Source: a virus (lineage: Duplodnaviria; Heunggongvirae; Uroviricota; Caudoviricetes). From it: DNA of 64,000 nucleotides. The position numbers and the translations under genes were made by a program. How positions within the stretch are numbered: position 1 is the stretch's first letter; each line of letters opens with the position of its first letter. This document shows positions 39,313-52,075 of this stretch, piece by piece. The stretch spans positions 833 through 64,832 of the IMG/VR virus record IMGVR_UViG_3300027710_001079. One strand, 5' to 3'. The notes beneath the pieces were generated by a model, which saw only the letters and a list, made by a program, of their open reading frames with translations, ran no database searches and was not told the origin of the DNA.

Positions 39313-39758
39313 TAACTGACCTCTACTTTCCCATTACCTAAATTGTTTACGTTTACAAAGCCACTGCCTCTACGTTCCATATCTACACCTTCCTCGGCAC
39401 CAACGCCTCTGCAAAGCTCTTGGAACCATTTATCCACAATGGCCTCATCTGACTCGCCAGTATAACCAGCGGATCTTAATTGTAACACAAAATACTCATT
39501 CCAGTCAAGTTCAAAGAATCCGTTACGCACATTTTCTTTATTAACATGAGTATCTAGTACAGCTACCCAGGGCTCTTTCTTTTCATTTGCTATTTCTTTT
39601 GGGCTAAGTTTTGATAACCGTTCTAATTCTCTAGCACGTTCTGCCTGTGCCGCCGCCTCTTTGGCAATTTGCGTAGAGCGTTCTGCATCCTCTACAGCAC
39701 GTCTAGTTTCGGCTTCAATTTTGTCAATGCCAAATATTTTTTTAATAAAACTGTTCAT
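39312..39758 (-). CDS. hypothetical phage protein
   Basis: The ATG at 39758 overlaps the queE stop (TAATG); coiled-coil followed by GFFELDWN. Confidence 0.7.
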   Translation of the reverse strand: MNSFIKKIFGIDKIEAETRRAVEDAERSTQIAKEAAAQAERARELERLSKLSPKEIANEKKEPWVAVLDTHVNKENVRNGFFELDWNEYFVLQLRSAGYTGESDEAIVDKWFQELCRGVGAEEGVDMERRGSGFVNVNNLGNGKVEVS

Positions 39759-40600
39759 TAAGTTCCCCACTCATTTTTAAATAACGGCACTTGCAATCTG
39801 TCACTGTAGCGTAGACCTGCGTTCATTGCCATAATAGCTACTGCTCGATTGTTTAGTGCGTAAACACTTTCAACACCACCTACTGGCATTAGATAAACAT
39901 GTCCTTTAAATCCTGCGGCACGATATTCTTCAGTAGCACGTTTAGCATCAGCAAAGTCTTGTTCTGTTGCAATAACAAACTTCAAATAAACTGTACCGTA
40001 GTTTTCATAGTCACAAACTACTTCTGGCTTAATAGCATCTGCCCACGGCTCACCGCTACATGGAAGTTTAGCACTTACGCTGAAAGTAATTTCTCTCTCG
40101 TCGCTACCGAACGCCCAGTCTTTTAAATATTCTTTAAATGCTGTAGTAAGACGCATAGTACCGTTGGTCTCAAAAGTAATTTCTTTTAGACCTGCCATCT
40201 TAGAATGTGATAACAAATCTGGATATTGTTTCTGCCATCCTAGCAATGGCTCACCGCCTGTAATTACAAGATGTTCGTCCCGCCATTCTTTGTGCGGTAA
40301 CGAATCAACAATAGCATCGGCAATTGAATCAGTAGAAAGAAGGGGAGATAGATGCTTAAAGCGAGGATCCCAACTAGCGTAACTGTCACAACCTGTACTA
40401 ACCAAAGGTAGCGATTTGTACTCGGTGTAAAGAGTTGGGTCAATATTTTCTGCTTCATTGCTAAGTTCTCCTCGTGGCATGCCAAAGCCTTGACATTTAA
40501 AGTTACATCCAAATGTACGCAAGAAAACGGAAGGTACTCCCATGTACCGTCCTTCACCTTGGATACTGTAAAAAAGTTCTGCGATTTTAATCTTACTCAT
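39758..40600 (-). CDS. queE: 7-carboxy-7-deazaguanine synthase (radical SAM)
   Basis: ELFYSIQGEGRYMGVPSVFLRTFGCNFKC...GCDS, VITGGEPLL, FETNGT, SVSAKL, LKFVI, YLMP, RLQV. Confidence 0.9.
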   Translation of the reverse strand: MSKIKIAELFYSIQGEGRYMGVPSVFLRTFGCNFKCQGFGMPRGELSNEAENIDPTLYTEYKSLPLVSTGCDSYASWDPRFKHLSPLLSTDSIADAIVDSLPHKEWRDEHLVITGGEPLLGWQKQYPDLLSHSKMAGLKEITFETNGTMRLTTAFKEYLKDWAFGSDEREITFSVSAKLPCSGEPWADAIKPEVVCDYENYGTVYLKFVIATEQDFADAKRATEEYRAAGFKGHVYLMPVGGVESVYALNNRAVAIMAMNAGLRYSDRLQVPLFKNEWGT

Positions 40601-40865
40601 AAATTCCTGACCATTGTTTTAATTTTTCAATCTTAGCCTGCTTGGCAGTATTAAGACCTTCTTCTGTTATAATATCATAAGATTTTAACAGATCTATCAT
40701 AGCAAGTACATCCCCAATCTCACCTTCTAGGTGCTGTGCATTAGTTAACGGCTTACCGGGTTTAAAATTGTTTAAACCAAATCGATGACATTTACTAACT
40801 GCCTGAATTACTTCTGCACATTCTTCACTGAGAATGTTCATTACTTCGTGTAACTTATTATCCAT
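40593..40865 (-). CDS. MazG-like nucleotide pyrophosphohydrolase
   Basis: EECAEVIQAVSK...LEGEIGDVLAMI gives the ExxE...ExxD all-alpha NTP-PPase pattern. Confidence 0.75.
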   Translation of the reverse strand: MDNKLHEVMNILSEECAEVIQAVSKCHRFGLNNFKPGKPLTNAQHLEGEIGDVLAMIDLLKSYDIITEEGLNTAKQAKIEKLKQWSGIYE

Positions 40866-41319
40866 TATTTGCTCTTTCTGTTAGGTAAACATCATTGTGT
40901 ACCCATTTATTGTTTACTAGGAAACCCCATTCTCTACGCTGTGGACCAGGCATGAACATTGTCCAGCAGTCCGTTCCTGCTTTAAGCTCAACACGGTGAT
41001 AGCTATTAGCAGGGCAAATACGGAAGTGCCCAGGACCACGCCAATGCCGTGTTTCACTGATCTTGGCACCTTGTGAATCAAAGTTAGGAGTCCATTCATA
41101 ATAACCACCTTTAAGTATTAGAGTAGCGTAAGGCCATGGATGATCATGCACATCATCGGGATCTGATTTAAGGAACTTATGAAGAAAGATATTAAAGGGG
41201 AAGTGCTTTCTATCTTTAAGAAATAAGTAATAGCGTTCGAGATACGGTTCATTTTCTTGCCTATCCATTACGATACGTTTACGACCAACTTGTTCTAAAA
41301 AGTTTAGGAACCATTTCAT
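40858..41319 (-). CDS. cupin-fold protein
   Basis: LHKF..SD.DDVHDHPW...ILKGGYYE...HRVEL (HxH..E..H). Start re-assigned to MKWFL. Confidence 0.65.
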   Translation of the reverse strand: MKWFLNFLEQVGRKRIVMDRQENEPYLERYYLFLKDRKHFPFNIFLHKFLKSDPDDVHDHPWPYATLILKGGYYEWTPNFDSQGAKISETRHWRGPGHFRICPANSYHRVELKAGTDCWTMFMPGPQRREWGFLVNNKWVHNDVYLTERANNG

Positions 41320-41531
41320 TTGCAATTCTCCAGCCAACTGTCAAATCGTTGTACGGCTTCTTCGAAGTCGATAGCCCAGACTTTTGCATAGATGATATTT
41401 TCTTTAATCTCCATATCAAATGGAATAGTACCATTGAAACGAAAATCTTCTGGAACATCTGTAGTAACTACAAATTCGTTAAGATGCTTTGCACGATTAA
41501 TCAAGTTATGCATCATATCAACTGAGTTCAT
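41316..41531 (-). CDS. hypothetical phage protein
   Basis: 71-aa ORF with 4-nt overlaps on both sides. Confidence 0.65.
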   Translation of the reverse strand: MNSVDMMHNLINRAKHLNEFVVTTDVPEDFRFNGTIPFDMEIKENIIYAKVWAIDFEEAVQRFDSWLENCK

Positions 41532-42031
41532 GTTGCCTCCGGGTCTGGAAATGATTCACTAAAGGGCCAAGACGTCTTTGGATTCGGCCTTGGCTTTAGT
41601 TTAATATTTTCTTCAATTACTGTACCATCATCTTCACACAAGTCTATTTGATAAGGTGCAATAACATGTACAGCAGTATCTTCTTCTTGCCAATCATGTT
41701 CACCGTCAAACAACCAGCCTGCTCCACCTTCGTAGTAGAGTTCTTTAAGTTCTTGCTGTTCTAATTCTGTAATGTCATCACTGAATTCCCATTCGATACT
41801 ACAGCTATCGTCAAACTCGCAACCCCAACCGCAGTCAGCTCTGGCATAAGCAACATTGTCACCTTCCCACGGAAGATTACAATCTAGGTCGCCTTCAACA
41901 AAACCTTGTCCCCAGCGATATGTTTCGTCAATATTAAACCAGCTGATACTACCGTCAGCATTTTCTCGAAACATTTCTACATGCCATACAATGCTTTTCT
42001 TTTCAAGAGGTTTAATTAAGTATACTGACAT
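41528..42031 (-). CDS. hypothetical acidic phage protein
   Basis: 167-aa very Asp/Glu/Trp-rich ORF in the operon. Confidence 0.7.
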   Translation of the reverse strand: MSVYLIKPLEKKSIVWHVEMFRENADGSISWFNIDETYRWGQGFVEGDLDCNLPWEGDNVAYARADCGWGCEFDDSCSIEWEFSDDITELEQQELKELYYEGGAGWLFDGEHDWQEEDTAVHVIAPYQIDLCEDDGTVIEENIKLKPRPNPKTSWPFSESFPDPEAT

Positions 42032-42032
42032 A

Positions 42033-42224
42033 TTAGTTGTCTAATTCCATAGAGTTGTATTCTTTAACTACATCGAGAACTTCTTCTTCTGTGTTACATA
42101 CAATCTTACTGTTCTTCCATTCGTTGTCGCTATCACGACCGCCGACTTCTACCATCCAACCGTTATCATAACGATTGATAGTAATTGACTCATTTACTTT
42201 TGCGAGTTTTTTTAATTTTGACAT
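42033..42224 (-). CDS. hypothetical phage protein
   Basis: 63-aa ORF, operon packing. Confidence 0.65.
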   Translation of the reverse strand: MSKLKKLAKVNESITINRYDNGWMVEVGGRDSDNEWKNSKIVCNTEEEVLDVVKEYNSMELDN

Positions 42225-42459
42225 CTGGATCTCCTTGTGTTGTTTCTACTGGAATAGTACTTTCCGCTTTTAGTATAGCAGCTCTGACGTCTCTTGTCAA
42301 TGCTTCGTCGTCCCATTCTAATTCAGTGCGACCATCCGGGTAAGTAGTCACTGTTAAATGACTGCCTTTTTCTACTTTTGGCAGAACAATTTTAGCAGAA
42401 CCTATTGTTCCGGGCATTTCCAAAACTGTACTATCTGATTTCTTTTTACGTGTTGCCAT
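42190..42459 (-). CDS. hypothetical phage protein
   Basis: ATG at 42459 with GGAG RBS. Confidence 0.6.
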   Translation of the reverse strand: MATRKKKSDSTVLEMPGTIGSAKIVLPKVEKGSHLTVTTYPDGRTELEWDDEALTRDVRAAILKAESTIPVETTQGDPDVKIKKTRKSK

Positions 42460-42463
42460 AGTA

Positions 42464-42667
42464 TTATTCTCCAAAATAACTGTTCATTATTTCTAGCTTG
42501 TCTTGATACTCTGCCATTAGTGCAACTTCCTTTTCAATAGCATCCATTAGATCTGTGTGATCATGGATAGCAGTAGGATTACTAAGCATAATATCCACAT
42601 TCATTTTATGCTTTAGAATGTGTGCTTCAAAGTGTTGTTTTAATACGCTGATAATTTCTTGTCTCAT
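42464..42667 (-). CDS. hypothetical phage protein
   Basis: 67-aa ORF coupled to the folE stop (ATGA). Confidence 0.65.
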   Translation of the reverse strand: MRQEIISVLKQHFEAHILKHKMNVDIMLSNPTAIHDHTDLMDAIEKEVALMAEYQDKLEIMNSYFGE

Positions 42668-43362
42668 CTTGGGGCAAAGTCCTGTTGTAATTTAATGTTA
42701 TCAAAGAATTCCTTCTTTGTGCTTTGATCGTCTTTAAACGCACCTTTTAGTACTGTGGTTTGTGTAAGACTTGAATGTGCCATGATGCCGCGATTCTCAC
42801 AGCAACCATGTACTGCCTGAATATAAACGCCTACATCCTTGGCGTCTGTAGCCTTCATGATTTCTTTGGCAATATCATTAGCAAGCTCCTCCTGGAGAGT
42901 ACCACGTCGGGCACACCATTGAGCGATGCGTGTATATTTTGAGAGGCCAATGAGTTTCTCGGCAGCAATAATACCAATATAGGCAACGCCACTAACAGGT
43001 TGGTGATGATGACTGCACATACTGCGAAGCTCACTGCGAACAACCAACATACCTTCGTAGCGGTCCTCCGAATCATTTGGAAATGCTGTTGCGTCTGGTG
43101 CTGGGTCATATCTACCTGCCATTATTTCGTGGAAGTACATTTTGGCAAGTCTTCTTGCGGTACCTTTTGAGTTGGGATCATTTTCGCGATCAATTAGCAA
43201 TGTGTCTAGCACTTGTTCAAATGCTTGTGTTGCTTCGTCGATTAGTTCGGGCAAAACATTAGTATCAACATACTCGCTGATGTTGTCTCCTGCCCAGAAA
43301 CGTTTGTTGTCGCTTCGCATTCTATTACGAATTACTTGCGACAGATTTTTACTTGTATCCAT
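42664..43362 (-). CDS. folE: GTP cyclohydrolase I
   Basis: TARRLAKMY, SMCSHHHQP, IGLSKYTRI, RRGTLQEEL, HGCCENRG, EFF. Confidence 0.95.
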   Translation of the reverse strand: MDTSKNLSQVIRNRMRSDNKRFWAGDNISEYVDTNVLPELIDEATQAFEQVLDTLLIDRENDPNSKGTARRLAKMYFHEIMAGRYDPAPDATAFPNDSEDRYEGMLVVRSELRSMCSHHHQPVSGVAYIGIIAAEKLIGLSKYTRIAQWCARRGTLQEELANDIAKEIMKATDAKDVGVYIQAVHGCCENRGIMAHSSLTQTTVLKGAFKDDQSTKKEFFDNIKLQQDFAPR

Positions 43363-43402
43363 TGTGATTTCTCCGAGTTATTGTCGTGGATGACTTCTAT
43401 AC

Positions 43403-43432
43403 ATTGTAACTTTATTTAGGCAGGTCAGTCAA
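43403..43432 (-). promoter_or_regulatory. sigma70-type promoter with embedded TAAATA upstream of folE
   Basis: TTGACT-18 nt-TACAAT; TAAATA at 43413-43418 lies in the spacer. Confidence 0.55.
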
Positions 43433-44227
43433 CCGTAGTAGCAAATTTTTCTGCACAGCTGATGATAGCACATTTAGATTAACATTATATTCTTTGGCAT
43501 AGTTTATTAAAGCTTCTGTATCTTTTGGAAAGCAGTACCCGCCAAATCCTAAAGAGCCATCTATACCTGGAACACGCATATGACTTTCACCGATGCGTTC
43601 GTCTTGCTTAATTAGATTAACAACTACATCGTAATTTAATTCAGCCATTCTTGCTAATTGATAAAGCTCATTCATGAACACTACCTTAGTAGCCAGGAAG
43701 CTATTAATAGCATATTTGGCCAAGGCAGCATCACCTATACTACAGAATTTAACTGTCTCTAAACAAGGCTGTGTCATTTTAATAATGCGTTCAGCTTCGT
43801 TTCGATATGCCCGAACATCGCCGCCGATAATGCACCACTTTGCATTGGCATAATCTCTACTAGCATTTGCTGCTGTTAAAAATTCTGGACTGTGTACTAG
43901 ATTAGGGTAGATTTTATTGAGACTCTGATATACATTTGGTGGTGCAGTTACTTTAGAAATAATAACGCCTCGAAAGTCTTTTAGTTTTTCTAGTACGCTT
44001 TCTAGTATACTAGTGTCACAACTCCCGTCGTCTTTCATTGGACTTGGAACACATATAAAGATGCCTTCGCATGCCATTAGATCTGTGTAAGTTCCGACAT
44101 GTCCTTTACGAACATCGGAATCTACACATACAACATTATCGGATGTAAATTCAGTAGAAGCACGAATAGCCTCTCCAACAAACCCTAAACCAACAATTCC
44201 TACCCTGGGATAAAAAGAATCATTCAT
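43412..44227 (-). CDS. UDP-glucose/GDP-mannose 6-dehydrogenase family protein (short form)
   Basis: GIVGLGFVG, FICVPSP, SPEFL, KYAINSFLATKVVFMNE, DERIG, GFGGYCFPKD. Confidence 0.9.
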   Translation of the reverse strand: MNDSFYPRVGIVGLGFVGEAIRASTEFTSDNVVCVDSDVRKGHVGTYTDLMACEGIFICVPSPMKDDGSCDTSILESVLEKLKDFRGVIISKVTAPPNVYQSLNKIYPNLVHSPEFLTAANASRDYANAKWCIIGGDVRAYRNEAERIIKMTQPCLETVKFCSIGDAALAKYAINSFLATKVVFMNELYQLARMAELNYDVVVNLIKQDERIGESHMRVPGIDGSLGFGGYCFPKDTEALINYAKEYNVNLNVLSSAVQKNLLLRLTDLPK

Positions 44228-45297
44228 TTAATATTTTCCAACAAGGTACTAGCACTAAAGAAATGTTCAGTTAAATCAGTTGCTTGTTTACGCACTTGAA
44301 ATTTAAACTGTTCGTAGTTGTTAATATACTGAATAATTTTGTAGCATAGTGCATGTCGATTTGCCTCGTATGCCTTGTAACTGTCAGTCCATTCGCTAGG
44401 ATATTTAAACATGTCGTAATACATTTCAGTATATGACAATCTATCCGGAACCATTGGAATAGCATCTACAATAGCACCTTCGTAACAGCTAATGCCTAGT
44501 GTTTCTTGTAGATTGGCACTAAACACTAACTTTGCCTCGCCTAACAAATTATGATATTCATTCTTTGTCAGTTGTTGATCTTGACACACAACAAATTCAT
44601 ATTGCGGCAAGTGTTTAGCTAAGTCACGGAAAATTTCAACCTGCTTTTCAGGAGCAATACGGTGTGGAAACAAAATAAGATCACGCTTGGGCATGTTCTT
44701 ATACATTGTTAGTGTTGAGTCCATATATTCCATAGGCCAACCTGAACGTACAATTTTGTTAGACCGTACAGCACGGAAATGTTCTGTTGGACCGTCAGTG
44801 CCAAACAAATTCTTAACGAACATGTCAATATGAAATTGTGTAGCAAAGTAGTTGTGATCAAATGCGTGATAGAAACTCTTCTCAGCGTGTCTAACCCAAG
44901 GCTTATCACCTACAAGACGTCCTAGAAAGTCTTGAGGGTCATAACTGCCAGCATGCCATAAGCCGTGTGTAGTTACTGGAATACCCAGCAACTCGCTCAT
45001 GTACTTGAGATTGATGATACCAGGGTGCCAAGCATCAGTAAATACAAAATGATCACCTGGGCGAACGGCTCCGTTGCAAAATAGCCGGCCCATCTGCTCA
45101 ACTTGACTAGCCTTGTATATATTGGTGCCGCCAAAGTTGAGAAACGCTCCAGGAGTGGTAGCACTAGGAATATCCGTAGGACCTGATATAATGTTGACAT
45201 TGTGTCCTGCCTTTCGTAAGAGGGCAGGTACATGGGACTTCCATTGTCCCGTGTACCTTGTCTCTACTGATTCTAAATCAACGAGAAAAACTGTCAT
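44224..45297 (-). CDS. GT-B glycosyltransferase, GTDC1/QTMAN-like
   Basis: LILFPHRIAPEKQ and VFSANLQETLGISCYEG...PMVPDRLSYTEMY (E-x7-E GT4-type motif). Start re-assigned to MTVFLVDLE at 45297. Confidence 0.75.
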   Translation of the reverse strand: MTVFLVDLESVETRYTGQWKSHVPALLRKAGHNVNIISGPTDIPSATTPGAFLNFGGTNIYKASQVEQMGRLFCNGAVRPGDHFVFTDAWHPGIINLKYMSELLGIPVTTHGLWHAGSYDPQDFLGRLVGDKPWVRHAEKSFYHAFDHNYFATQFHIDMFVKNLFGTDGPTEHFRAVRSNKIVRSGWPMEYMDSTLTMYKNMPKRDLILFPHRIAPEKQVEIFRDLAKHLPQYEFVVCQDQQLTKNEYHNLLGEAKLVFSANLQETLGISCYEGAIVDAIPMVPDRLSYTEMYYDMFKYPSEWTDSYKAYEANRHALCYKIIQYINNYEQFKFQVRKQATDLTEHFFSASTLLENIK

Positions 45298-45532
45298 TTC
45301 TGTTGTATTGTGGACGAGGGTTTTTGCCCTTGTACTCAGTACGAGGTCGACGTTCGCCACCGCTGTTCCAACGTTGATAATTCTTGTATTCTGGAGAACG
45401 ATACAAGTCTGCTGGATTAAAATCCAATAAGTTGAAACGGCAATAATCGAGCCACTTATCGAGATCATCAAAGATCTTCTCAACTTCAGGTTTCATGAAC
45501 AGGGTTTTTTGAATGTAGTTTGGCTGTGCCAT
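45278..45532 (-). CDS. hypothetical phage protein
   Basis: 84-aa ORF with AGG RBS between the T-fold gene and the glycosyltransferase. Confidence 0.65.
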   Translation of the reverse strand: MAQPNYIQKTLFMKPEVEKIFDDLDKWLDYCRFNLLDFNPADLYRSPEYKNYQRWNSGGERRPRTEYKGKNPRPQYNRNDSFSR

Positions 45533-45547
45533 TTTTGTAATACCTAA

Positions 45548-45931
45548 TTAAAGGGTTGAAGGAAATTTAATGAAGCAGCCGTTCTCGCCGTCTTCACTTA
45601 CATCAATCCAAATCTCGCGACCTGGATATCTTGCAGAAATGGTTCCGTGGAGATCACGGCTTATCATTTCGCAGGATTTGTGGTTGAGTTCGAGTGTGCC
45701 ATCTGTGTAGCAGTGCTCTAACCAACGCTTAAACTGAATAAACTCAATATCACGATCATCGTGAAAAACTTGAATATAGATTTTAAAATGGAAAATATGA
45801 CGGTGCGGAGTACCAAGGAAACTGACATCATACATGTCTCCTGTTTTAAGTTTAGGGTCTGTAGCCGCCGCTGGATACATATGAACACCTTCCTTGCGAA
45901 AGGTTACCCAAATCATGTTAAGATCAGTCAT
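45548..45931 (-). CDS. QueD-like T-fold protein (LxxxHRHxF motif; DpdL/CDG-decarboxylase-like or atypical QueD)
   Basis: EGVHMYP, FLGTPHRHIFHF, DIEF, SCEMI, VSEDGENG. It lacks the canonical QueD CxxxHGH. Confidence 0.7.
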   Translation of the reverse strand: MTDLNMIWVTFRKEGVHMYPAAATDPKLKTGDMYDVSFLGTPHRHIFHFKIYIQVFHDDRDIEFIQFKRWLEHCYTDGTLELNHKSCEMISRDLHGTISARYPGREIWIDVSEDGENGCFIKFPSTL

Positions 45932-46130
45932 TAACTAGATCCTTTGCAAGAGATTTAATCTCTGAATCAGTTAGGAAAAATTGATAGTTTGAAGTAAAGT
46001 CAACTTCTCCGTCTTTGTTAAAACATTCCTGAATAAACTGTACATGATTCAAGTCAGTTGGAGTAAGGCATTTCTTTGACGTAACACGGAGCCTAAACGC
46101 TTTATTTTCTTTTACTGTAAATTCTTTCAT
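45924..46130 (-). CDS. hypothetical phage protein
   Basis: 68-aa ORF overlapping both neighbours. Confidence 0.6.
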   Translation of the reverse strand: MKEFTVKENKAFRLRVTSKKCLTPTDLNHVQFIQECFNKDGEVDFTSNYQFFLTDSEIKSLAKDLVND

Positions 46131-46645
46131 TTTGCTATCTCGTCCTCTTTATATTGATCCCAATCGGTAAACTTATTACTATCCAACAAATCGTGCAATC
46201 TATGTGTCCAAACACCTGCATTAGTTGCTTCGAAATCTTTGTCGTCTAGCTTTATTGTAGCATTATAATTGAACTGTGTCAAGTAGGGTAACTTAACAGA
46301 AATCATCGAAATGAATTTTCTTTGCTCATTTAATCCTGTTTCCAAAATATCTTCTGCGTACTTGCAATCAAAATCCAAAGTACACCAAAAATCTTGTTTT
46401 AGAAGAGCCATAATCATTAGCTTCCAATTTTCGAGATCTTCTGTGCTTCTTGGTTTGAAACTTTGATTTGCACCAAAGTAAACATGCTTGACTTTTTCTT
46501 GTTTAGCAAGTAGTAAAACTTCGGCTGGATTTTGAACACCTGTTACAAACAGAGTGTCCATTCCGTATGCCGCAGTATGCTCAATTTCTTTACCAGTAAA
46601 GAAAATTACTTGATCACTAGTACCTGTTGCATAATCACGATTCAT
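46127..46645 (-). CDS. hypothetical protein in the deazaguanine cluster
   Basis: 172-aa ORF overlapping the DpdA-like gene; FFTGKEIEHT..TLFV..HVYFGANQSF. Confidence 0.7.
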   Translation of the reverse strand: MNRDYATGTSDQVIFFTGKEIEHTAAYGMDTLFVTGVQNPAEVLLLAKQEKVKHVYFGANQSFKPRSTEDLENWKLMIMALLKQDFWCTLDFDCKYAEDILETGLNEQRKFISMISVKLPYLTQFNYNATIKLDDKDFEATNAGVWTHRLHDLLDSNKFTDWDQYKEDEIAK

Positions 46646-48269
46646 CTTGCAGTCCTTCTTCTAGAGCACGTAAATCATCATCATCTGGATTAACTAAATC
46701 AACTTCTTCTGCTTTAGTAACTTCTTCAATTTCGAAGAATGAGTTAAAAGTATTCTGCTTAGGACCGCCTTGTAGACGAGCACCTTCTAAGCTACGAAGG
46801 AAAGGACCAGCTTGCTCAATTAACGCAAACGCTTCATCTTTAGTAGCAGTATTAAACAGCTCTTCGACAAATGTGCTAAAGTACAAAATGTTACGAGGAA
46901 CCCAATCTGAATACTCGTCACTCATGTCGCTTGATTTAACTTTCTTCCAATGTTTCCAATTAATTCTATCTTTAGTTTTTGCAATCTCAATATCCATTAA
47001 TTGTTGAGCACGTTGAACAGCAACAATATGACATTCAACATTATGTCCCATCATTAGGGCATATGCAAAGCTATCCCAAGATGTTTTGTTAGGAATCTTA
47101 CCTAGTTTGTTAAGCCTAGGCACAATATGATAGTGTTCTGGATTCAAGTGATCAAACTTAACATCACCTAACTCTGTATCAGACTTTCTTTCGCCTAGAT
47201 CATAATAGGCGATGTCTTTCATTGTTAGACGTTTTCCGATTGTTGACTCGAATGGGAACGGGATGTCTGATCCTGAAAGTGCTTTGTTATCTGGGGCTTT
47301 GTCCATAATAACACTCCACCTTTTTGGCGTGTGGACTGCGTTTGTGTAGACGAGGCCGTGTGCTGTTGCGATGAACGGTGAGGCACAGTCAAAAGATATG
47401 GTAAGCTCTTCATTAATATGTTTCCTAATTTGTCGTTGAATTAACGTTAAGTAACAACTCCAGTCAAGTTGTGCTGTACCCAAGAAGTGGATCCAGTTTT
47501 TGCCCTTCAGCAAACCATCTTCACGCAAGGTCATAAGACGCTTGAGTGTAATATCCATCTTGCACATGTTAGCACCACCAAAGGCCCAACCTTCTGCTTC
47601 ACGCCCTGCATACTTGCCTGCCGGGTCGCTAAATTCTTTTACACCATTATACCACTTCTCAGCAGTTTCCCAATCTGAACCTTGTAAGACATTAAGCCAT
47701 TTAGTATTGCCTAATCTGTTCATTAGGAAGTAATCGTTATTGTAACGAGTCTTATCTAAGCAGTCATCGAATGTTTTTAATCCGGTCTTTGGACTGTGAA
47801 TATGATCACAGGCCCAGGTTGGAACGTCTAACATCATAGACCAATCGGCTGTTAGCTCAAGCCATTCTAAAATACTTTGACGTGTCTTAGTTGCAGCAGG
47901 ACCTTCAAAGTTTAACCAGTCAAACTTAAGAACACCTTTACCAATTTGGTATCCGCCGGAGTCTCCCAGAATCATTGTATTCCCGCGATCACGTTGTTGG
48001 ATCATTGACTCCTGCGTTATACTCTTATTCAAGTCTAACTGTGCGTGACCCGCAGAGTATAGACCGTACTTGTATGTGAAATATCCTTGTTCAGGATTTA
48101 AAAAGTTCATACCTTCAATGCCGCGATCAAAGCCGGCGGGAATACGATCTTTGGGAACGAACTCTTCTAGGCGTTGCTTGGCAACATAGGTACTATAGAA
48201 ACTACTAATTGCAGGTAGGTATACTGCGTAGTCCTTTTGTAGTGGGGTTAAATTAACTTGTTGTTTCAT
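46635..48269 (-). CDS. dpdA: TGT-fold 7-deazaguanine DNA transglycosylase, DpdA-like
   Basis: TGT motifs GDSGGYQ, MMLDVP, NVLQG, GWAFGG, HFLG, ISFDCASP and HN; clustered with folE and queE and next to replication genes. Confidence 0.75.
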   Translation of the reverse strand: MKQQVNLTPLQKDYAVYLPAISSFYSTYVAKQRLEEFVPKDRIPAGFDRGIEGMNFLNPEQGYFTYKYGLYSAGHAQLDLNKSITQESMIQQRDRGNTMILGDSGGYQIGKGVLKFDWLNFEGPAATKTRQSILEWLELTADWSMMLDVPTWACDHIHSPKTGLKTFDDCLDKTRYNNDYFLMNRLGNTKWLNVLQGSDWETAEKWYNGVKEFSDPAGKYAGREAEGWAFGGANMCKMDITLKRLMTLREDGLLKGKNWIHFLGTAQLDWSCYLTLIQRQIRKHINEELTISFDCASPFIATAHGLVYTNAVHTPKRWSVIMDKAPDNKALSGSDIPFPFESTIGKRLTMKDIAYYDLGERKSDTELGDVKFDHLNPEHYHIVPRLNKLGKIPNKTSWDSFAYALMMGHNVECHIVAVQRAQQLMDIEIAKTKDRINWKHWKKVKSSDMSDEYSDWVPRNILYFSTFVEELFNTATKDEAFALIEQAGPFLRSLEGARLQGGPKQNTFNSFFEIEEVTKAEEVDLVNPDDDDLRALEEGLQDES

Positions 48270-48621
48270 GTTCTTTACTTAATATTATTGTAGCATCTAA
48301 TTGTATCTTTGCCTTCTTTAAATTATCCAAGGCAATATTAATAGCAGGATGTTCTTTAGCTAACGCTTCGATTTGAAACTCTTCGTCTCGCTTCCTTCGA
48401 GCCCAATCGAGTAATGCTTCTGCCTCAGTAGTCATTGATACACTAGCATAGGTTGTTGATAACTCTTTCCATGATGAACCGTCGTATACTTCCATGTTAC
48501 AACTAGAGGTATTGTATCGCAACATTCCTGCTGATTGACTTCCAGGAGGAACGTATGTGCTTATAGGACTACCTCCAGTTACCTGAAGGTATCTTCCGGA
48601 ATGAGTTATCCCTTTTATCAT
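48253..48621 (-). CDS. hypothetical phage protein
   Basis: 122-aa ORF overlapping both neighbours. Confidence 0.65.
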   Translation of the reverse strand: MIKGITHSGRYLQVTGGSPISTYVPPGSQSAGMLRYNTSSCNMEVYDGSSWKELSTTYASVSMTTEAEALLDWARRKRDEEFQIEALAKEHPAINIALDNLKKAKIQLDATIILSKEHETTS

Positions 48622-49352
48622 GCCTGTGCTGGAATAATATATTTGTAAGTAGCAAGGCCGCTATCTAATGTAATCTGCATAGCACCTTCGTTACTGAAAC
48701 TTACTTTAGCATTATTAGCGTCTGCAATTTTAAGAATGCTCAACACACTTTGTACAGGCCATGTCCAACCTTTATTTAGGTTGCCAACAACACCTGTTGC
48801 AAAAATAAATTCACCACCGTGTGTGCTTTGATCTCCAAAGGTAAACTTTAAATTACCATTTTCGGTCTTTGCCAAGAAAGTAGTGTGTTCGTTGTTAGCA
48901 GCCGCTTGGAACTGAAAACGTTGTACACTTTGAACGCTAGGCTCAATCTCAACATCCCACTTGACACCGCGAAACTTCACAGTCTTCAACTTTTCGTTAA
49001 TAATGTCAGTATTCATAAAACGATAATCGTTTTTGAAGTCCTTTGTTTTATTCTCAAAGTGCAAACCAGTTGGAATAGTATCTCCGTTGCGGTCTGCGGT
49101 AGTAACTTCAATCTTAGCATCTTCTTTGTACTCTGGGCAATCTAACAGATACTTTAGCTTGTTCATTTGCGGCATACCGAACACACCTACCATGTCTGGA
49201 TATGGATTTGCTGTTTCAGCATACATGATAACCGAACGGTCATCTGCCATACTGTCAACGCTAGTCTTCTTTGCGTCTCCAGTAATTTTCACAATATTTA
49301 GGAAGCCAAGGTTATGTGTGTGACCTACGATGTCTTGAAGAATGTCTTTCAT
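48618..49352 (-). CDS. probable DNA polymerase sliding clamp (gp45/PCNA-like)
   Basis: 244 aa, directly downstream of polB; C-terminal ITLDSGLATYKYIIPA resembles clamp C-termini. Confidence 0.55.
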   Translation of the reverse strand: MKDILQDIVGHTHNLGFLNIVKITGDAKKTSVDSMADDRSVIMYAETANPYPDMVGVFGMPQMNKLKYLLDCPEYKEDAKIEVTTADRNGDTIPTGLHFENKTKDFKNDYRFMNTDIINEKLKTVKFRGVKWDVEIEPSVQSVQRFQFQAAANNEHTTFLAKTENGNLKFTFGDQSTHGGEFIFATGVVGNLNKGWTWPVQSVLSILKIADANNAKVSFSNEGAMQITLDSGLATYKYIIPAQA

Positions 49353-49405: not shown

Positions 49406-52075
49406 TTATTCAAAGCTGAATAAACTGCCGAATGTGTTGTTCTGGGTAGTAGATTCTAAGTCCCACTCTAGAACTCCAATTAAGTTGTCTAACTTGTTGT
49501 TGATAATAGTAGCTTCCATTTCGCTATGATCGAACGGAAGTTCTTGGAACCATTTTGGTAAACGCATTTCGTCAACTGGATATGCAATTGAAGTATACCC
49601 TAATGGATTGTCTTTCATCTTGCACACAATAACTTTCATACCGTCTACGATGCCCATTGAGTACTTGTCACCGTTCATACGTTTCAAAGTATTCCAGTTA
49701 ATACTAGCACGAACATGTCCTGGCATGTTAGTCCTGCCTGCTTTGACTTCTTTGGCTTGATATTCTGCAATGTTATTTGCACGTTTAGGACTGCCTTTTT
49801 CCCAACCGGGCCTTTGTTTAAATTCACTTCGGAACTCACCGATGCGTTCTAGAATCTCTTCTTCCTGGGCATTATTAAGCACCTTGGTTAGAATTTCTTC
49901 TAAGAACTTTTGCATAAATTCAGGAGTATCACTGCGTTTCAAATCTAAGCCCATAGCTTTGATCTTACCTGGCTTACCATCTACATCGCTACGCTTGCCT
50001 TCTTTGTCATAATACAAAACAGCATAACGCTTCTTAGTAATGAACAGGCCTTTGATAGCAACAATTTCACGACCAGCTTTGATAACATCTCCTCGAGTTT
50101 TCGGGCAGTGGAAGTCGTCTAACATAAATTGTGGAAATGTGCCATTTACTTCTTCGGAGATAGTGTCGTATAGTTGAACAACGACTTCTTTGTTCCAGGG
50201 TATTTGCCCCTTATTAATCTCGTTTTTTAAGGTTGTGTAAGCTGAAAAGTATACAGAATCTGTATCACCGTATATGATACTTTTGCCAGTATAGTTGTAC
50301 TCACCAGTAACTACTTCATTTACTTTCGCAGCCATATGCCTGGCGATCCGTCGACCAGTAAGAGTTGTGGATTGCCCAATACGATTATCAAAGAACCTAC
50401 AACCAGCGTTAAGAATAGCACCGTATAGGCTATTGAGGTTAATCTTTTTAACCAGCTGTCTTTTATCCCAATATTCTTCTTCAACTTTATTCCCCGATGC
50501 AATACATTCTTTTAATTTTGCCTGCATTTCTTTACGTTCGGCATACCAACGTTTTAACAATCCGGGAATGATCCCTTCTTTCTCATAGGTAAAGATAGTA
50601 CCGTTTGCTGAGATTACCCAAGGCTGATTGCTTTCAAAAATCAGTTCATAGATTTGAGCACCGCTCAGTATATCAACTCTGCCATCTTCCCAGTCGACAG
50701 TGATATCAGTTGCACGATCCTTTGACATAACAAGTTCGTATTCATTACTGCCAAACTTACCTTCCCATGAAGCTGCAAAGCTAGAACCTTTATTCATCTT
50801 ACCTTCGATTTCGGTCTTAGTATAAGATTGGCGTAACTGTCCAACAATAGTTTCTGGACCCATGTTCAACGCACGAATAGCAGACGGATACAATGAGTTA
50901 ATGTCCATTGATCCGATCCAGTCATGCAATCCTTTTTTAGGATATGCAACATACGCCCCTGCGGCTTGTGTTTCTAAATCTTCATCACGTTTAGGACGAC
51001 CCGGAACAATCAATCCGCGGTGATGAGCTTCGTTTACAATTGCCTGTTCAGTAACAGCTACCGCACCCATTGTGGTCTGTAATAGTACAGTACACTCGTG
51101 TGCTAGTGTGTTAGCTAAGTCAATGAACTTTAATTTATTGTCTAGCTTATTCAACAATGCTGTATCTTGTCTATTGTATTCGATGAACTTGCGAAAGTCA
51201 TTGTTATACAATTGATCCAAGGTACCTTCGTATTGCGTCTTACTCTCACCTACTTCCATCTCTCCGATGGCATCCAATCTATAGGTGTGTCGCTCTTCAT
51301 AGGTGTACTTGCGGTACAACTCGAGACTGTCCAGATGAACGCGACCAACCAAGTCATAAGTAATAGCTTTTTTTCCATACTTCTCGTACTCTCTTTTCTT
51401 AGGGAACTGATCCCATAGACACAACCTACGAGTATCTTCTTTACTAAGAACTTTAATGATGCGGTTAACAGTGTAAGGCATATCATATCCTTCACTATTC
51501 CATCCGCTCAAAATATCCGCATCTTGAATCAGGCCTAGGAATGTTTCTAACATTTCATATTCTGTTTCAAACAGCATGGTGTTAGGAAAGTCTTTTACTT
51601 GCTCCTTTGCCTGCTCCATTGTCAGCGTCTTGGGCGGAACTGCAAGACATACTAATGTATCTAACCATTGCAAGTGGACAGAAATTGCAGTAATTGGCAT
51701 AAACGCATCTTCAGGAGTGCTGTAACCGCGTTCTGGATCAAAGTCTACCTCAATATCCCAAAATGCTACATTGAGCTTAGGAGCATCTTTGCCTAAATAG
51801 TTTTCTTCTAGGCATCGGAATACAGGATTAATATCATTTTCAAAGAGTTTTTTTCCTGAGTGAATTCGTGTTTCTTTTTGGAACTCTTTGTAATTTTTGA
51901 CAGAAACTTTACTTAGTGGATCACCGTAAATTGAACGGTATTTTCCTTTAGCGTCTGGGTAGTATAATACATATTTGGCAGGATAATCTTGAAAGATTCT
52001 GCCTTTCTTTGGATCACGCTCAACGACGCGAATAACGTCCTTGTCGCGATCCCACATTGAATCGACGTAGCTCAT
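49406..52075 (-). CDS. family B DNA polymerase (T4 gp43-like)
   Basis: Exonuclease motifs WDIEVD, GWNSEGYD, YNRQD; polymerase motifs SMDINSLYPS, KINLNSLYG, YGDTDS, KKRY. Confidence 0.97.
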   Translation of the reverse strand: MSYVDSMWDRDKDVIRVVERDPKKGRIFQDYPAKYVLYYPDAKGKYRSIYGDPLSKVSVKNYKEFQKETRIHSGKKLFENDINPVFRCLEENYLGKDAPKLNVAFWDIEVDFDPERGYSTPEDAFMPITAISVHLQWLDTLVCLAVPPKTLTMEQAKEQVKDFPNTMLFETEYEMLETFLGLIQDADILSGWNSEGYDMPYTVNRIIKVLSKEDTRRLCLWDQFPKKREYEKYGKKAITYDLVGRVHLDSLELYRKYTYEERHTYRLDAIGEMEVGESKTQYEGTLDQLYNNDFRKFIEYNRQDTALLNKLDNKLKFIDLANTLAHECTVLLQTTMGAVAVTEQAIVNEAHHRGLIVPGRPKRDEDLETQAAGAYVAYPKKGLHDWIGSMDINSLYPSAIRALNMGPETIVGQLRQSYTKTEIEGKMNKGSSFAASWEGKFGSNEYELVMSKDRATDITVDWEDGRVDILSGAQIYELIFESNQPWVISANGTIFTYEKEGIIPGLLKRWYAERKEMQAKLKECIASGNKVEEEYWDKRQLVKKINLNSLYGAILNAGCRFFDNRIGQSTTLTGRRIARHMAAKVNEVVTGEYNYTGKSIIYGDTDSVYFSAYTTLKNEINKGQIPWNKEVVVQLYDTISEEVNGTFPQFMLDDFHCPKTRGDVIKAGREIVAIKGLFITKKRYAVLYYDKEGKRSDVDGKPGKIKAMGLDLKRSDTPEFMQKFLEEILTKVLNNAQEEEILERIGEFRSEFKQRPGWEKGSPKRANNIAEYQAKEVKAGRTNMPGHVRASINWNTLKRMNGDKYSMGIVDGMKVIVCKMKDNPLGYTSIAYPVDEMRLPKWFQELPFDHSEMEATIINNKLDNLIGVLEWDLESTTQNNTFGSLFSFE

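What the first reader, a model, noticed from the sequence alone, without database searches (positions are those of the whole stretch)
39758..48269. 7-deazaguanine DNA-modification cluster with an inserted sugar-transfer module: candidate glycosylated deazaguanine in phage DNA
Seen: queE, folE, a QueD-like T-fold gene and a TGT-fold DpdA-like gene lie in one co-oriented block directly downstream of polB and the clamp. An NDP-sugar 6-dehydrogenase and a GT-B glycosyltransferase (4-nt overlap with each other) sit between folE and the T-fold gene. MazG-like and cupin genes lie beside queE. No queC, queF or gat-queC is in the window. Known: FolE-QueD-QueE make CDG, and phage DpdA inserts 7-deazaguanines into DNA as anti-restriction. 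The phage derivatives I recall (dPreQ0, dG+, dADG, dPreQ1, dCDG, dDG, methyl- and formyl-preQ1) are not glycosylated. Inference: this phage makes a sugar (possibly uronic acid)-decorated 7-deazaguanine, a deazaguanine counterpart to T4 glucosyl-hmC.
Basis: partly seen in the sequence, partly recalled or inferred. Interest (0 to 1): 0.9.

Follow-up and report, generated by a model that had tools for sequence, protein, structure and literature searches.

The report
Sugar transferase in deazaguanine DNA cluster
An uncultured giant phage carries the known genes for swapping guanine in its DNA for 7-deazaguanine, and a sugar-adding enzyme travels with those genes in several unrelated phages and in bacteria, which predicts a sugar-bearing purine in DNA that no paper I found describes and that nobody has yet measured.

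Summary
On the minus strand lie polB, a probable clamp, a 544-aa TGT-fold DpdA-like protein, a DpdL-type T-fold protein, a GT-B/GT4-like glycosyltransferase, a short NDP-sugar dehydrogenase, FolE, a cupin, MazG and QueE. QueD and a QueC-like gene lie elsewhere in the 193-kb record.

The glycosyltransferase is not an insertion. It is a conserved member of this module in 160 related IMG/VR loci and in the cultured phages PA5oct, ACP17, Xanthomonas BUDD and Sinorhizobium Phosso, in changing gene orders. In alphaproteobacterial chromosomes it sits next to a DpdA-like gene and a YhhQ-like transporter. DpdL phages without it include phiST, whose DNA carries plain dDG.

The dehydrogenase is a sporadic accessory, found in 6 of 38 spanning loci. 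It lacks the UDP-binding C-terminal domain.

The most likely reading (about 0.5) is a DpdL/DpdA 7-deazaguanine DNA modification extended by glycosylation. The chemistry, the acceptor atom and the sugar are untested. PA5oct DNA is reported to have a modified G of unknown identity.

This scan has already flagged the same association on many other genomes. My analysis was done before I read those notes and agrees with them. Novelty: a new variant of a known kind, directly testable by LC-MS on cultured phages.

The parts
49406..52075 (-). Family B DNA polymerase. It is the upstream anchor of the conserved block.
   Evidence: Pfam DNA_pol_B 4.8e-39 and exo domain. 51% identical to PA5oct polB.
48618..49352 (-). 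244-aa conserved protein, a probable sliding clamp.
   Evidence: phrog_12062. The Phosso homolog (33% identity) is annotated as a sliding clamp, and the PA5oct homolog as a structural protein. Present in 78 of 80 related loci.
46635..48269 (-). DpdA-like, TGT-fold base-exchange enzyme (544 aa). It is the predicted DNA guanine to 7-deazaguanine transglycosylase.
   Evidence: AF2 pLDDT 86.8. The top 50 Foldseek PDB hits are all tRNA-guanine transglycosylases, E about 1e-6. D103, S104, G106 (of the GDSGGYQ stretch), H261, G264 and D294 are invariant, and D148 is nearly invariant (90% or more), in 40 diverse homologs. hhalign to ACP17 DpdA gives 95.9% probability, and to phiST DpdA3 68%. No Pfam TGT hit.
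46127..46645 (-). g172, an orphan 172-aa protein that travels with the module.
   Evidence: Found in 75 of 80 and 63 of 80 related loci, and 30% identical to the gene next to DpdA in ACP17. No Pfam, PHROG, NCBIfam, PDB or Atlas match.
45548..45931 (-). DpdL, a QueD-like T-fold protein and the predicted CDG decarboxylase giving 7-deazaguanine.
   Evidence: LGTPHRHIF matches the DpdL signature LxxxHRHxF of PMC10516641. The motif is invariant in 18 homologs. tblastn hits the phiST DpdL gene at 31%, E 4e-6, and ACP17 at 56%. phrog_17812.
45278..45532 (-). g84, a conserved small ORF between DpdL and the GT with a basic C-terminal tail.
   Evidence: tblastn gave 59 matches among the 80 close loci (58-100% identity in the rows shown) and 47 among the 80 wider loci, always just upstream of the GT.
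44224..45297 (-). GT-B (GT4-like, EX7E) glycosyltransferase, 357 aa.
   Evidence: AF2 pLDDT 89.8. Foldseek PDB matches glycogen synthase, BshA, MshA, PimA, GlgM and BH4 glucosyltransferase at E 2e-9 to 1e-6. The best viral match is the ACP17 GT, TM 0.86-0.90. 27 residues are invariant across 14 phage and bacterial homologs, including R213, E217, K218 and E265...E273.
43412..44227 (-). Short NDP-sugar 6-dehydrogenase-like protein (271 aa), overlapping the GT stop by 4 nt.
   Evidence: Pfam UDPG_MGDP_dh central domain 3e-22 and N domain 2e-14. It aligns to residues 10-301 of a 446-aa UGDH. GLGFVG and GFGGYCFPKD are present. The genome has no PF03720 domain. The short length and C-terminus are conserved in homologs at 55-91% identity. 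The gene is present in only 6 of 38 loci spanning GT to FolE.
42664..43362 (-). FolE, GTP cyclohydrolase I, the first step to the 7-deazaguanine skeleton.
   Evidence: Pfam GTP_cyclohydroI 1.2e-40 and phrog_2197.
40858..41337 (-). Cupin-type protein, a possible oxygenase or sugar isomerase. Its role is open.
   Evidence: phrog_4786 'cysteine dioxygenase' 1.5e-41. Weak cupin_2 similarity around an HDHPW stretch. Present in 33 of 80 loci in each of the two locus sets.
40593..40865 (-). MazG-like nucleoside triphosphate pyrophosphohydrolase.
   Evidence: Pfam MazG 6e-06 and phrog_4856 2e-22. A MazG also sits next to DpdL in phiST.
39758..40600 (-). QueE-like radical SAM enzyme, 7-carboxy-7-deazaguanine synthase.
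   Evidence: phrog_2076 3.7e-53, Pfam Radical_SAM, and NCBIfam QueE models 1e-15, below their cut-offs.

Best explanation
This is a DpdL/DpdA-type 7-deazaguanine DNA-modification module of an uncultured jumbo phage distantly related to Pseudomonas phage PA5oct, extended by a glycosyltransferase.

Proposed pathway:
1. FolE, QueD (encoded about 50 kb away) and QueE make 7-carboxy-7-deazaguanine from GTP.
2. DpdL is predicted to decarboxylate it to 7-deazaguanine.
3. The TGT-fold DpdA-like enzyme exchanges guanine in phage DNA for this base.
4. The conserved GT4-like enzyme then transfers a sugar from a nucleotide sugar onto the deazaguanine. This happens most likely on DNA after insertion, or alternatively on the free base before insertion.
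5. In the subset of phages that carry it, including this one, the short NAD-dependent dehydrogenase oxidises the sugar's C6 to a uronic acid. It may act on the already attached sugar, because it lacks the UDP-binding domain.

The expected result is a bulky hypermodified G that blocks restriction.

Shown here: the gene identities and folds, and the conserved linkage. Inferred: every chemical step from DpdL onward, the acceptor atom, the sugar and the timing.
For: Identities:
- TGT fold of the 544-aa protein, with the DSGG[F/Y]Q motif and conserved Asp residues.
- DpdL motif and homology to phiST DpdL.
- GT-B/GT4 fold with an intact EX7E motif and donor-site residues.
- FolE and QueE, and QueD in the same genome, 52% identical to ACP17 QueD.

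Linkage in uncultured phages:
- The GT is present in 61 of 80 loci picked by DpdA similarity. Many of the others break off at or shortly after DpdL, though I did not check each one.
- DpdL is present in 78 of 80, and DpdA in 75 of 80, loci picked by GT similarity.

Linkage in cultured phages, with different gene orders:
- PA5oct: DpdA-GT-DpdL.
- ACP17: FolE-g172-DpdA-GT-DpdL-QueE.
- Xanthomonas BUDD: GT-DpdA-DpdL-QueE.
- Phosso: DpdL-GT-FolE-QueE.

Linkage in bacteria: GT homologs at 39-51% identity lie 1-2 kb from DpdA-like genes in alphaproteobacterial chromosomes. In the two loci I annotated, a YhhQ/Vut_1-like transporter lies directly upstream of the GT, beside a resolvase or an integrase.

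Other support:
- DpdL lineages without the GT exist. One is phiST, where plain dDG was measured (PMC10516641). This fits an optional tailoring step.
- Distant DpdA homologs are followed by other tailoring-type genes, such as a methyltransferase.
- No hydroxymethylase (PF00303) that would give a pyrimidine acceptor was found.
[quoted passage not shown] The authors infer a modified G (PMC12191111).
- ACP17 dpdL plus dpdA alone gave no dDG in E. coli, and the authors suggest further enzymes may be needed (PMC10516641).
- Precedent: queuosine, a 7-deazaguanine, is mannosylated and galactosylated in vertebrate tRNA.
Against: - No chemistry was measured for any GT-bearing phage.
- 7-deazaguanine has no hydroxyl or amine at C7, so the acceptor atom is unclear. 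Retaining GT4 enzymes are not known, to my knowledge, to make C-glycosides.
- The bacterial GT/DpdA islands lack DpdL, so the acceptor may not depend on the DpdL product.
- The GT is not close to the T4 alpha- or beta-glucosyltransferases, which are absent from the top 50 matches of both fold searches. Its pI is 6.5, so it is not an obviously DNA-binding protein.
- Its structural neighbours act on small molecules (malate, inositol phosphate, tetrahydrobiopterin).
- Most of the supporting loci belong to one large phage clade with conserved gene order, so the counts overstate independence.
- DpdL's activity has never been demonstrated.
- The genome has a QueC-like gene and two other sugar clusters with their own GTs, which complicates both the base and the sugar assignment.
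Confidence: 0.5

Rival explanations
1. The module makes plain 2'-deoxy-7-deazaguanosine (or dCDG) in DNA, as in phiST. The glycosyltransferase acts on a soluble intermediate of the pathway, such as a pterin, CDG or the free deazaguanine base. It might protect, solubilise or activate that intermediate, and the sugar does not end up in DNA.
For: The GT's structural neighbours are small-molecule GT4 enzymes, including UDP-glucose:tetrahydrobiopterin glucosyltransferase, whose substrate also derives from the FolE/PTPS pathway. The GT is adjacent to DpdL in four of the five cultured-phage lineages I inspected, and one gene away in BUDD. The GT is not basic.
Against: In the bacterial islands the GT sits with DpdA and a transporter, with no FolE, QueE or DpdL detected in the loci searched. 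This ties it to the insertion step rather than to de novo synthesis. A transient sugar would need a removing enzyme, and none is evident.
Confidence: 0.2
2. The glycosyltransferase and the dehydrogenase serve a non-DNA target, such as virion protein or host-surface glycans. They sit in the replication block only through inherited gene order.
For: The genome encodes other sugar pathways and canonical GTs. A more distant GT homolog (27% identity) in Xanthomonas phage PhiXhv-15 lies with GlmS and an LmbE-type deacetylase, not with deazaguanine genes. Many supporting loci are phylogenetically related.
Against: The GT stays next to DpdA/DpdL through rearrangements in unrelated phages and in bacterial chromosomes that have no phage structural genes nearby. 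It is absent from DpdL phages as a unit rather than scattered. It lies among early replication genes, not among structural genes.
Confidence: 0.12
3. The GT glycosylates DNA at a site other than the deazaguanine (another base, or guanine itself), and the DpdA-like enzyme acts in parallel with it.
For: Phage DNA glycosyltransferases are known for hydroxymethyl pyrimidines. The acceptor problem on 7-deazaguanine would disappear.
Against: The 193-kb record has no thymidylate-synthase-type hydroxymethylase, although it is only about 55% complete. The GT co-varies with DpdA/DpdL, not with pyrimidine-modifying genes.
Confidence: 0.06
4. The 544-aa TGT-fold protein does not work on DNA. It might act on tRNA or as a nucleoside or base salvage enzyme, in which case the cluster modifies RNA or nucleotide pools.
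For: No Pfam TGT hit, no conserved zinc-site cysteines, and only a distant relation to validated DpdA proteins.
Against: The gene sits directly after polB and the probable clamp in a replication block. ACP17's homolog is treated as DpdA by the group that defined the family. PA5oct DNA shows G-dependent restriction resistance.
Confidence: 0.05

Closest known systems
DpdL/DpdA3 system of Cellulophaga phage phiST (FolE, QueD, QueE, DpdL, DpdA3, MazG; gives 2'-deoxy-7-deazaguanosine, replacing all G; Cui, Hutinet et al., NAR 2023, PMC10516641)
   Same: FolE, QueD, QueE, a MazG and a DpdL with the LxxxHRHxF signature. A TGT-fold transglycosylase sits next to the replication genes. There is no QueC in the cluster.
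   Different: phiST has no homolog of the GT, g172 or g84. Its DpdA3 is 259 aa against 544 aa here and is only distantly related (hhalign 68%, E 5e-5). The window's genome also has a remote QueC-like gene.
Pseudomonas jumbo phage PA5oct (Wroclawvirus) and Acidovorax phage ACP17: cultured phages with the same module
   Same: DpdA-like (42% identity in PA5oct; 23% by tblastn and 95.9% hhalign probability in ACP17), GT (45% and 36%), DpdL (50% and 56%) and QueE all lie side by side. PA5oct also shares polB, the 244-aa gene and the 5'-3' exonuclease in the same order.
   Different: The PA5oct locus I fetched and the ACP17 locus have no short dehydrogenase and no cupin by tblastn. Their DNA chemistry is unpublished in the library I searched. 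PA5oct is only reported to have a modified G by restriction tests.
T4 alpha- and beta-glucosyltransferases acting on 5-hydroxymethylcytosine in DNA
   Same: These are phage GT-B-fold enzymes that add a sugar from UDP-glucose to an already modified base in DNA as an anti-restriction measure. This is the working analogy.
   Different: The acceptor is a pyrimidine hydroxymethyl group. The T4 enzymes are not among the top structural matches here. Here the partner modification is a purine analogue inserted by base exchange.
Glycosylated queuosine in vertebrate tRNA (mannosyl-Q and galactosyl-Q, made by QTMAN and QTGAL)
   Same: A 7-deazaguanine derivative is inserted by a TGT-family enzyme and then glycosylated in the polynucleotide. 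From memory, QTMAN (GTDC1) is a GT4-family enzyme.
   Different: The substrate is RNA, not DNA. The sugars go onto the cyclopentene-diol hydroxyls of queuosine, a side chain for which this cluster has no biosynthetic genes.
Bacterial UDP-glucose 6-dehydrogenase (Ugd/TuaD family)
   Same: NAD-binding N domain, central domain and the catalytic cysteine motif GFGGxCFPKD.
   Different: It stops after the central domain, and the UDP-binding C-terminal domain is missing from the whole record. The short form is conserved among relatives, so a non-UDP-linked substrate is possible.

Membership tests
TGT/DpdA superfamily (base-exchange transglycosylases) | TGT-type TIM-barrel fold | tested here: met
   AF2 model pLDDT 86.8. 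All top 50 Foldseek PDB matches are tRNA-guanine transglycosylases, probability 1.0, E about 1e-6, TM (target) about 0.5.
TGT/DpdA superfamily (base-exchange transglycosylases) | Catalytic DSGG[F/Y]Q motif and a conserved downstream Asp nucleophile. The residue roles are recalled from Z. mobilis TGT D102/D280. | tested here: met
   GDSGGYQ at residues 102-108. D103, S104, G106, H261, G264 and D294 are invariant, and D148 nearly invariant, in 40 homologs. The motifs align with ACP17 DpdA.
TGT/DpdA superfamily (base-exchange transglycosylases) | Sequence-level match to Pfam TGT (PF01702) or to solved TGTs | tested here: not met
   No Pfam hit. No PDB sequence hit with the single sequence or with the profile.
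TGT/DpdA superfamily (base-exchange transglycosylases) | Zinc site (CxCxxC...H) of TGT | tested here: not met
   No invariant or near-invariant Cys in the 40-sequence alignment.
DpdA3 subfamily (Cui et al. 2023) | Homology to phiST CGPG_00065 | tested here: inconclusive
   hhalign probability 68%, E 4.8e-5 over 116 columns. Probability to the ACP17 DpdA is 95.9%, E 6e-9. The paper's subfamily table is not held in the library.
DpdA (any subfamily) | Inserts a 7-deazaguanine into DNA | not testable with these tools
   Needs MS of DNA from a phage or an expression strain.
DpdL (predicted CDG decarboxylase) | QueD-like protein with LxxxHRHxF in place of CxxxHGH | tested here: met
   LGTPHRHIF in P0394. 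L39, H43, H45 and F47 are invariant and R44 nearly invariant in 18 homologs. The motif definition comes from PMC10516641.
DpdL (predicted CDG decarboxylase) | Homology to phiST DpdL (CGPG_00067) | tested here: met
   tblastn 31% identity over 92% of the query, E 4e-6, at the gene beside MazG in phiST.
DpdL (predicted CDG decarboxylase) | Occurs with DpdA, FolE, QueD and QueE but without QueC | tested here: inconclusive
   DpdA, FolE, QueD and QueE are present. A QueC-like gene (Pfam 44.8 bits, C-terminal half, plus SGGLDS) lies about 90 kb away in the same record. PA5oct, ACP17, Phosso and RHph_I1_18 have no QueC.
GT-B glycosyltransferases, GT4-like | Two-Rossmann GT-B fold | tested here: met
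   AF2 pLDDT 89.8. Top PDB matches are GT4/GT5 enzymes: glycogen synthase, BshA, MshA, PimA and GlgM.
GT-B glycosyltransferases, GT4-like | EX7E motif and basic donor-phosphate residues in the C-terminal domain | tested here: met
   QETLGISCYE. E265, E273, R213 and K218 are invariant in 14 phage and bacterial homologs.
GT-B glycosyltransferases, GT4-like | Pfam Glycos_transf_1 match | tested here: not met
   No Pfam, PHROG or NCBIfam family at E 0.01 or better.
Phage DNA glucosyltransferases (T4 alpha-GT, beta-GT) | Specific structural or sequence similarity to these enzymes | tested here: not met
   They are not among the top 50 PDB or viral structure matches.
UDP-glucose/GDP-mannose 6-dehydrogenase | NAD-binding N domain, central domain and catalytic Cys | tested here: met
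   PF03721 at 1.8e-14 and PF00984 at 3.1e-22, plus GLGFVG and GFGGYCFPKD.
UDP-glucose/GDP-mannose 6-dehydrogenase | C-terminal UDP-binding domain (PF03720) | tested here: not met
   The protein ends at the equivalent of about residue 301 of a 446-aa UGDH. The record has no PF03720. The short form is conserved in relatives.
CDG pathway (FolE, QueD, QueE) | All three enzymes are encoded | tested here: met
   FolE Pfam 1.2e-40. QueE phrog_2076 at 3.7e-53, with NCBIfam QueE models below their cut-offs. QueD Pfam PTPS 3.8e-14, with a CNMNHGY variant of the CxxxHGH motif.

The most novel reading that the evidence does not exclude
Phages of this type (and small alphaproteobacterial islands) put a sugar on a 7-deazaguanine in DNA. 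In this phage a stripped-down dehydrogenase, working on the DNA-borne sugar, may oxidise it to a uronic acid. As far as I know this would be the first glycosylated purine analogue described in any DNA, and it would explain why dpdL plus dpdA alone failed to reproduce the modification in E. coli.
Probability: 0.45. Interest if true: 0.9.

Novelty: new variant of a known kind. Interest (0 to 1): 0.75.

Why it matters
The known 7-deazaguanine modifications of phage DNA are eight small derivatives, none of them glycosylated. Sugar decoration of DNA is known only on hydroxymethyl pyrimidines.

A conserved glycosyltransferase locked to DpdA/DpdL in abundant environmental jumbo phages, in therapy-relevant Pseudomonas phages (the PA5oct group) and in bacterial chromosomes points to another layer of purine hypermodification. 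This has consequences in four areas:
- restriction and anti-restriction biology, including the END nucleases that target PA5oct;
- sequencing artefacts in metagenomes;
- phage-therapy host range;
- enzymatic tools for DNA labelling.

It may also explain why the DpdL/DpdA3 pathway could not be reconstituted. Several carriers are in culture, so the question is directly testable.

Tried and rejected
- Megablast of the 10-kb region against the phage collection found nothing.
- Pfam, PHROG and NCBIfam gave no family for the DpdA-like protein, the GT or g172.
- PDB sequence searches were empty or noise. This covers the single sequences of DpdA and the GT, and the profiles of the DpdA, g172 and DpdL families.
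- The ESM Atlas search for g172 gave no usable hit and holds no model.
The motif and homology showed that the T-fold gene is the 127-aa DpdL.
- Literature searches for a link between 7-deazaguanine/DpdA and a glycosyltransferase, and for DpdA3 or DpdL, found only Cui et al. 2023 and no report of a sugar-bearing deazaguanine. The library is incomplete, so this does not prove absence.
- The supplementary tables of Cui et al. are not held.
- The record has no clear homolog of PA5oct anti-END gp52. The best tblastn hit has E 0.029.
- No thymidylate-synthase-type hydroxymethylase, NTP_transferase or QueF was found in the 193-kb record, which is about 55% complete.
- I did not run complex prediction, because the report makes no binding claim.

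Full report
**What is there**

The window is bases 833-64832 of a 192,832-bp IMG/VR virus record that CheckV rates about 55% complete. From about 34 kb onward the genes run on the minus strand. In order of transcription:

| Gene | Coordinates | Basis |
|---|---|---|
| Family B polymerase | 49406-52075 | |
| 244-aa protein | 48618-49352 | Homologs are annotated as sliding clamp (Phosso) or structural protein (PA5oct) |
| 122-aa ORF | 48253-48621 | |
| 544-aa protein | 46635-48269 | see below |
| g172 | 46127-46645 | see below |
| 68-aa ORF | 45924-46130 | |
| 127-aa protein | 45548-45931 | see below |
| Conserved 84-aa ORF | 45278-45532 | |
| Glycosyltransferase | 44224-45297 | see below |
| 271-aa dehydrogenase | 43412-44227 | Overlaps the GT by 4 nt |
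| FolE | 42664-43362 | |
| Small ORFs | - | |
| Cupin | 40858-41337 | |
| MazG | 40593-40865 | |
| QueE | 39758-40600 | |
| 152-aa ORF | 39312-39770 | |
| 5'-3' exonuclease | 38314-39312 | |

**The three unnamed proteins**

*The 544-aa protein.* It has no Pfam, PHROG, NCBIfam or PDB sequence match.
- It belongs to a large family: 882 clusters at 50% identity, and more than 7000 close relatives in metagenomes.
- In an alignment of 40 diverse members, D103, S104 and G106 of a GDSGGYQ stretch, H261, G264 and D294 are invariant, and D148 is nearly invariant.
- The AlphaFold model (pLDDT 86.8) matches only tRNA-guanine transglycosylases at the top of a PDB fold search.
- Profile comparison links it to the DpdA of Acidovorax phage ACP17 (95.9%, E 6e-9), and more weakly to the 259-aa DpdA3 of phiST (68%).
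- I call it DpdA-like. It has the TGT fold and catalytic motifs, no zinc-site cysteines, and uncertain subfamily membership.

- It carries LGTPHRHIF, the LxxxHRHxF signature that Cui, Hutinet and co-workers used to define DpdL, the predicted CDG decarboxylase of phiST (PMC10516641; sequence).
- The motif is invariant in 18 homologs.
- tblastn finds the phiST DpdL gene, next to its MazG.

*The glycosyltransferase.* It starts at the ATG at 45297, as all its homologs do.
- Its model (pLDDT 89.8) is a GT-B enzyme closest to retaining GT4/GT5 enzymes.
- It has an EX7E motif and invariant donor-site residues.

**Rest of the pathway**
- QueD lies at C1:98507-99010, 52% identical to ACP17 QueD and next to a DAO-family FAD oxidoreductase.
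- A QueC-like PP-loop gene lies at C1:138950-139567.
- QueF, a Pfam-recognisable TGT, a thymidylate-synthase-type hydroxymethylase and an NDP-sugar pyrophosphorylase were not found.

**Is the GT part of the module?**

*Uncultured phages.*
- In 80 IMG/VR loci picked by similarity to the DpdA-like protein (66-91% identity), the order polB, 244-aa gene, DpdA, g172, DpdL, GT, FolE, cupin, QueE, exonuclease is kept. The GT is present in 61 of them. Many of the others break off at or shortly after DpdL, though I did not check each one.
- In 80 further loci picked by GT similarity (52-64% to the window's GT), DpdL is present in 78 and DpdA in 75.
- These loci belong to one broad clade, so they are not independent.

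*Cultured phages of other groups.* These are the independent cases.

| Phage | Gene order |
|---|---|
| PA5oct | DpdA-GT-DpdL...QueE |
| ACP17 | QueD...FolE-g172-DpdA-GT-DpdL-QueE |
| Xanthomonas BUDD | FolE...GT-DpdA-DpdL-QueE |
| Phosso | clamp...DpdL-GT...FolE...QueE, with DpdA far away |

Xanthomonas X1 and Burkholderia BCSR5 also carry both GT and DpdL.

*Bacteria.* GT homologs at 39-51% identity lie in alphaproteobacterial chromosomes within 1-2 kb of a DpdA-like gene (Pelagibacterium, Ochrobactrum, Devosia, Azospirillum, Shimia, Sulfitobacter, Roseobacter). In the two loci I annotated, a YhhQ/Vut_1-like transporter lies directly upstream of the GT. Its match has E 3e-5 to 2e-4, below Pfam's cut-off, and YhhQ is the family that I recall imports preQ0/preQ1. 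A resolvase or an integrase lies nearby, and no DpdL, FolE or QueE was detected.

*Lineages without the GT.*
- DpdL phages without a GT hit are RHph_I1_18, Vibrio Bakedbeans and D479, Aeromonas Ahp1, Synechococcus BUCT-ZZ01, Chryseobacterium MA9V-3 and the phiST group.
- phiST DNA carries plain dDG (PMC10516641).
- Distant DpdA homologs are followed by other genes: QueE, a methyltransferase, or an unknown 364-aa protein.
- A 27%-identical GT in PhiXhv-15 lies with GlmS and an LmbE-type deacetylase, without deazaguanine genes.

This pattern is what one expects of an optional tailoring enzyme tied to the DpdA step.

**The dehydrogenase**
- It has the NAD-binding and central domains and the catalytic cysteine motif of UDP-glucose/GDP-mannose dehydrogenases. 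It ends where the C-terminal UDP-binding domain should begin.
- No such domain is encoded elsewhere in the record.
- The short form is not an accident. Homologs at 55-91% identity keep the length and the C-terminus. A second short type and a full-length 405-aa type occur in other relatives.
- It is present in only 6 of 38 close loci that span GT to FolE.
- I read it as a strain-variable elaboration. The idea that it oxidises a sugar no longer attached to UDP is inference only.

**Mechanism**

The best-supported steps are FolE, QueD and QueE making CDG, and a TGT-fold enzyme exchanging G in DNA.

DpdL as a decarboxylase is a published prediction that failed to reconstitute in E. coli for phiST and ACP17. 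The authors noted that other enzymes may be required. ACP17 has the GT and g172 right beside those two genes.

That the GT puts a sugar on the deazaguanine is inference from linkage. The acceptor is unknown. Candidates are N2 or O6, a C-glycosidic bond at the electron-rich C7 or C8, an ester on the 7-carboxylate if DpdL is not a decarboxylase, or a hydroxyl introduced by the cupin. The cupin is not detected in the PA5oct and ACP17 clusters by tblastn.

Published data on PA5oct fit a bulky G modification. [quoted passage not shown] No mass spectrometry was reported for it (PMC12191111). Glycosylation of a 7-deazaguanine in a polynucleotide has a precedent in vertebrate tRNA.

**Against**

There is no chemistry. 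The GT is not like the T4 DNA glucosyltransferases and is not basic. Its neighbours in structure space act on small molecules, including tetrahydrobiopterin. The genome holds two other sugar clusters with canonical GTs.

**Earlier notes of this scan**

After I looked up the earlier notes of this scan. The same association has been flagged on many other genomes, with the same reading. I checked one of their leads here, the bacterial islands. Those notes are not independent evidence.

**Verdict**

This is a new variant of a known kind, a DpdL/DpdA 7-deazaguanine system with a conserved glycosyltransferase. I give about 0.5 to a sugar-bearing deazaguanine in DNA.

Noticed in passing
window 45278-45532 (-): An 84-aa ORF with a basic C-terminal tail lies between DpdL and the GT. 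tblastn gave 59 matches among the 80 close loci and 47 among the 80 wider loci, so it is probably a further module member. Function unknown.
   Followed up: partly
window 46127-46645 (-): g172 is an orphan family conserved next to DpdA in this clade and in ACP17 (30% identity). It has no detectable domain. The Phosso gene in the same position is annotated 'glycosylase' but shows no BLAST similarity to g172.
   Followed up: partly
G000:C1:138950-139567 (+), outside the window (locus L003): A QueC-like PP-loop protein (SGGLDS, C-terminal Cys cluster, Pfam QueC 44.8 bits over the C-terminal half only) sits next to a dual-specificity phosphatase-like gene. PA5oct, ACP17, Phosso and RHph_I1_18 have no QueC, so its role in this genome is unclear.
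   Followed up: partly
G000:C1:97326-99010 (-), outside the window (locus L002): QueD has CNMNHGY in place of the usual CxxxHGH. It lies directly beside a 400-aa DAO-family FAD-dependent oxidoreductase (Pfam 6e-59), an unusual neighbour for QueD.
   Followed up: no
G000:C1:106640-114079 and 154990-162477 (loci L204, L205): There are two further sugar gene sets. The first has an NDP-sugar 4,6-dehydratase-type SDR plus two canonical Glycos_transf_1 GTs. The second is a plus-strand block with a DegT-type aminotransferase, a class I/II aminotransferase, a TPP-enzyme fragment and two or three SDRs. It is a candidate unusual amino- or branched-sugar pathway whose target is unknown.
   Followed up: partly
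window 8567-22888 (+): A single 4773-aa open reading frame lies among large plus-strand genes, presumably structural. I did not examine it.
   Followed up: no
L053:9256-10431: One related phage has a different GT (391 aa, about 21% identical) in the slot where the conserved GT normally sits. This hints at exchange of the sugar-transfer step.
   Followed up: no
L088, L089, L091: In more distant phages the DpdA-like gene still follows polB, but the next gene is QueE, a Methyltransf_24 methyltransferase, or an unknown 364-aa protein plus an LMW phosphatase. These may be alternative tailoring steps.
   Followed up: partly
L185:6089-9035 and L194:7492-10557: Compact bacterial sets (DpdA-like, YhhQ/Vut_1-like transporter, GT) lie beside a resolvase in Pelagibacterium, and beside an integrase and an ABC-3C defence gene in Shimia. 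They are possible mobile DNA-modification islands.
   Followed up: partly
L175 (Xanthomonas phage PhiXhv-15, PV764602.1 104806-108892): A distant homolog of the GT (27% identity) sits with GlmS and an LmbE-type deacetylase. This resembles the GlcNAc-transfer-then-deacetylate logic of bacillithiol and mycothiol synthesis. Its target is unknown.
   Followed up: no
L001, L089, L091 compared with window 49406-52075: polB is interrupted in PA5oct by a homing endonuclease gene, and it is split or intein-bearing in two metagenomic relatives. It is a single intact 889-aa gene in the window.
   Followed up: no
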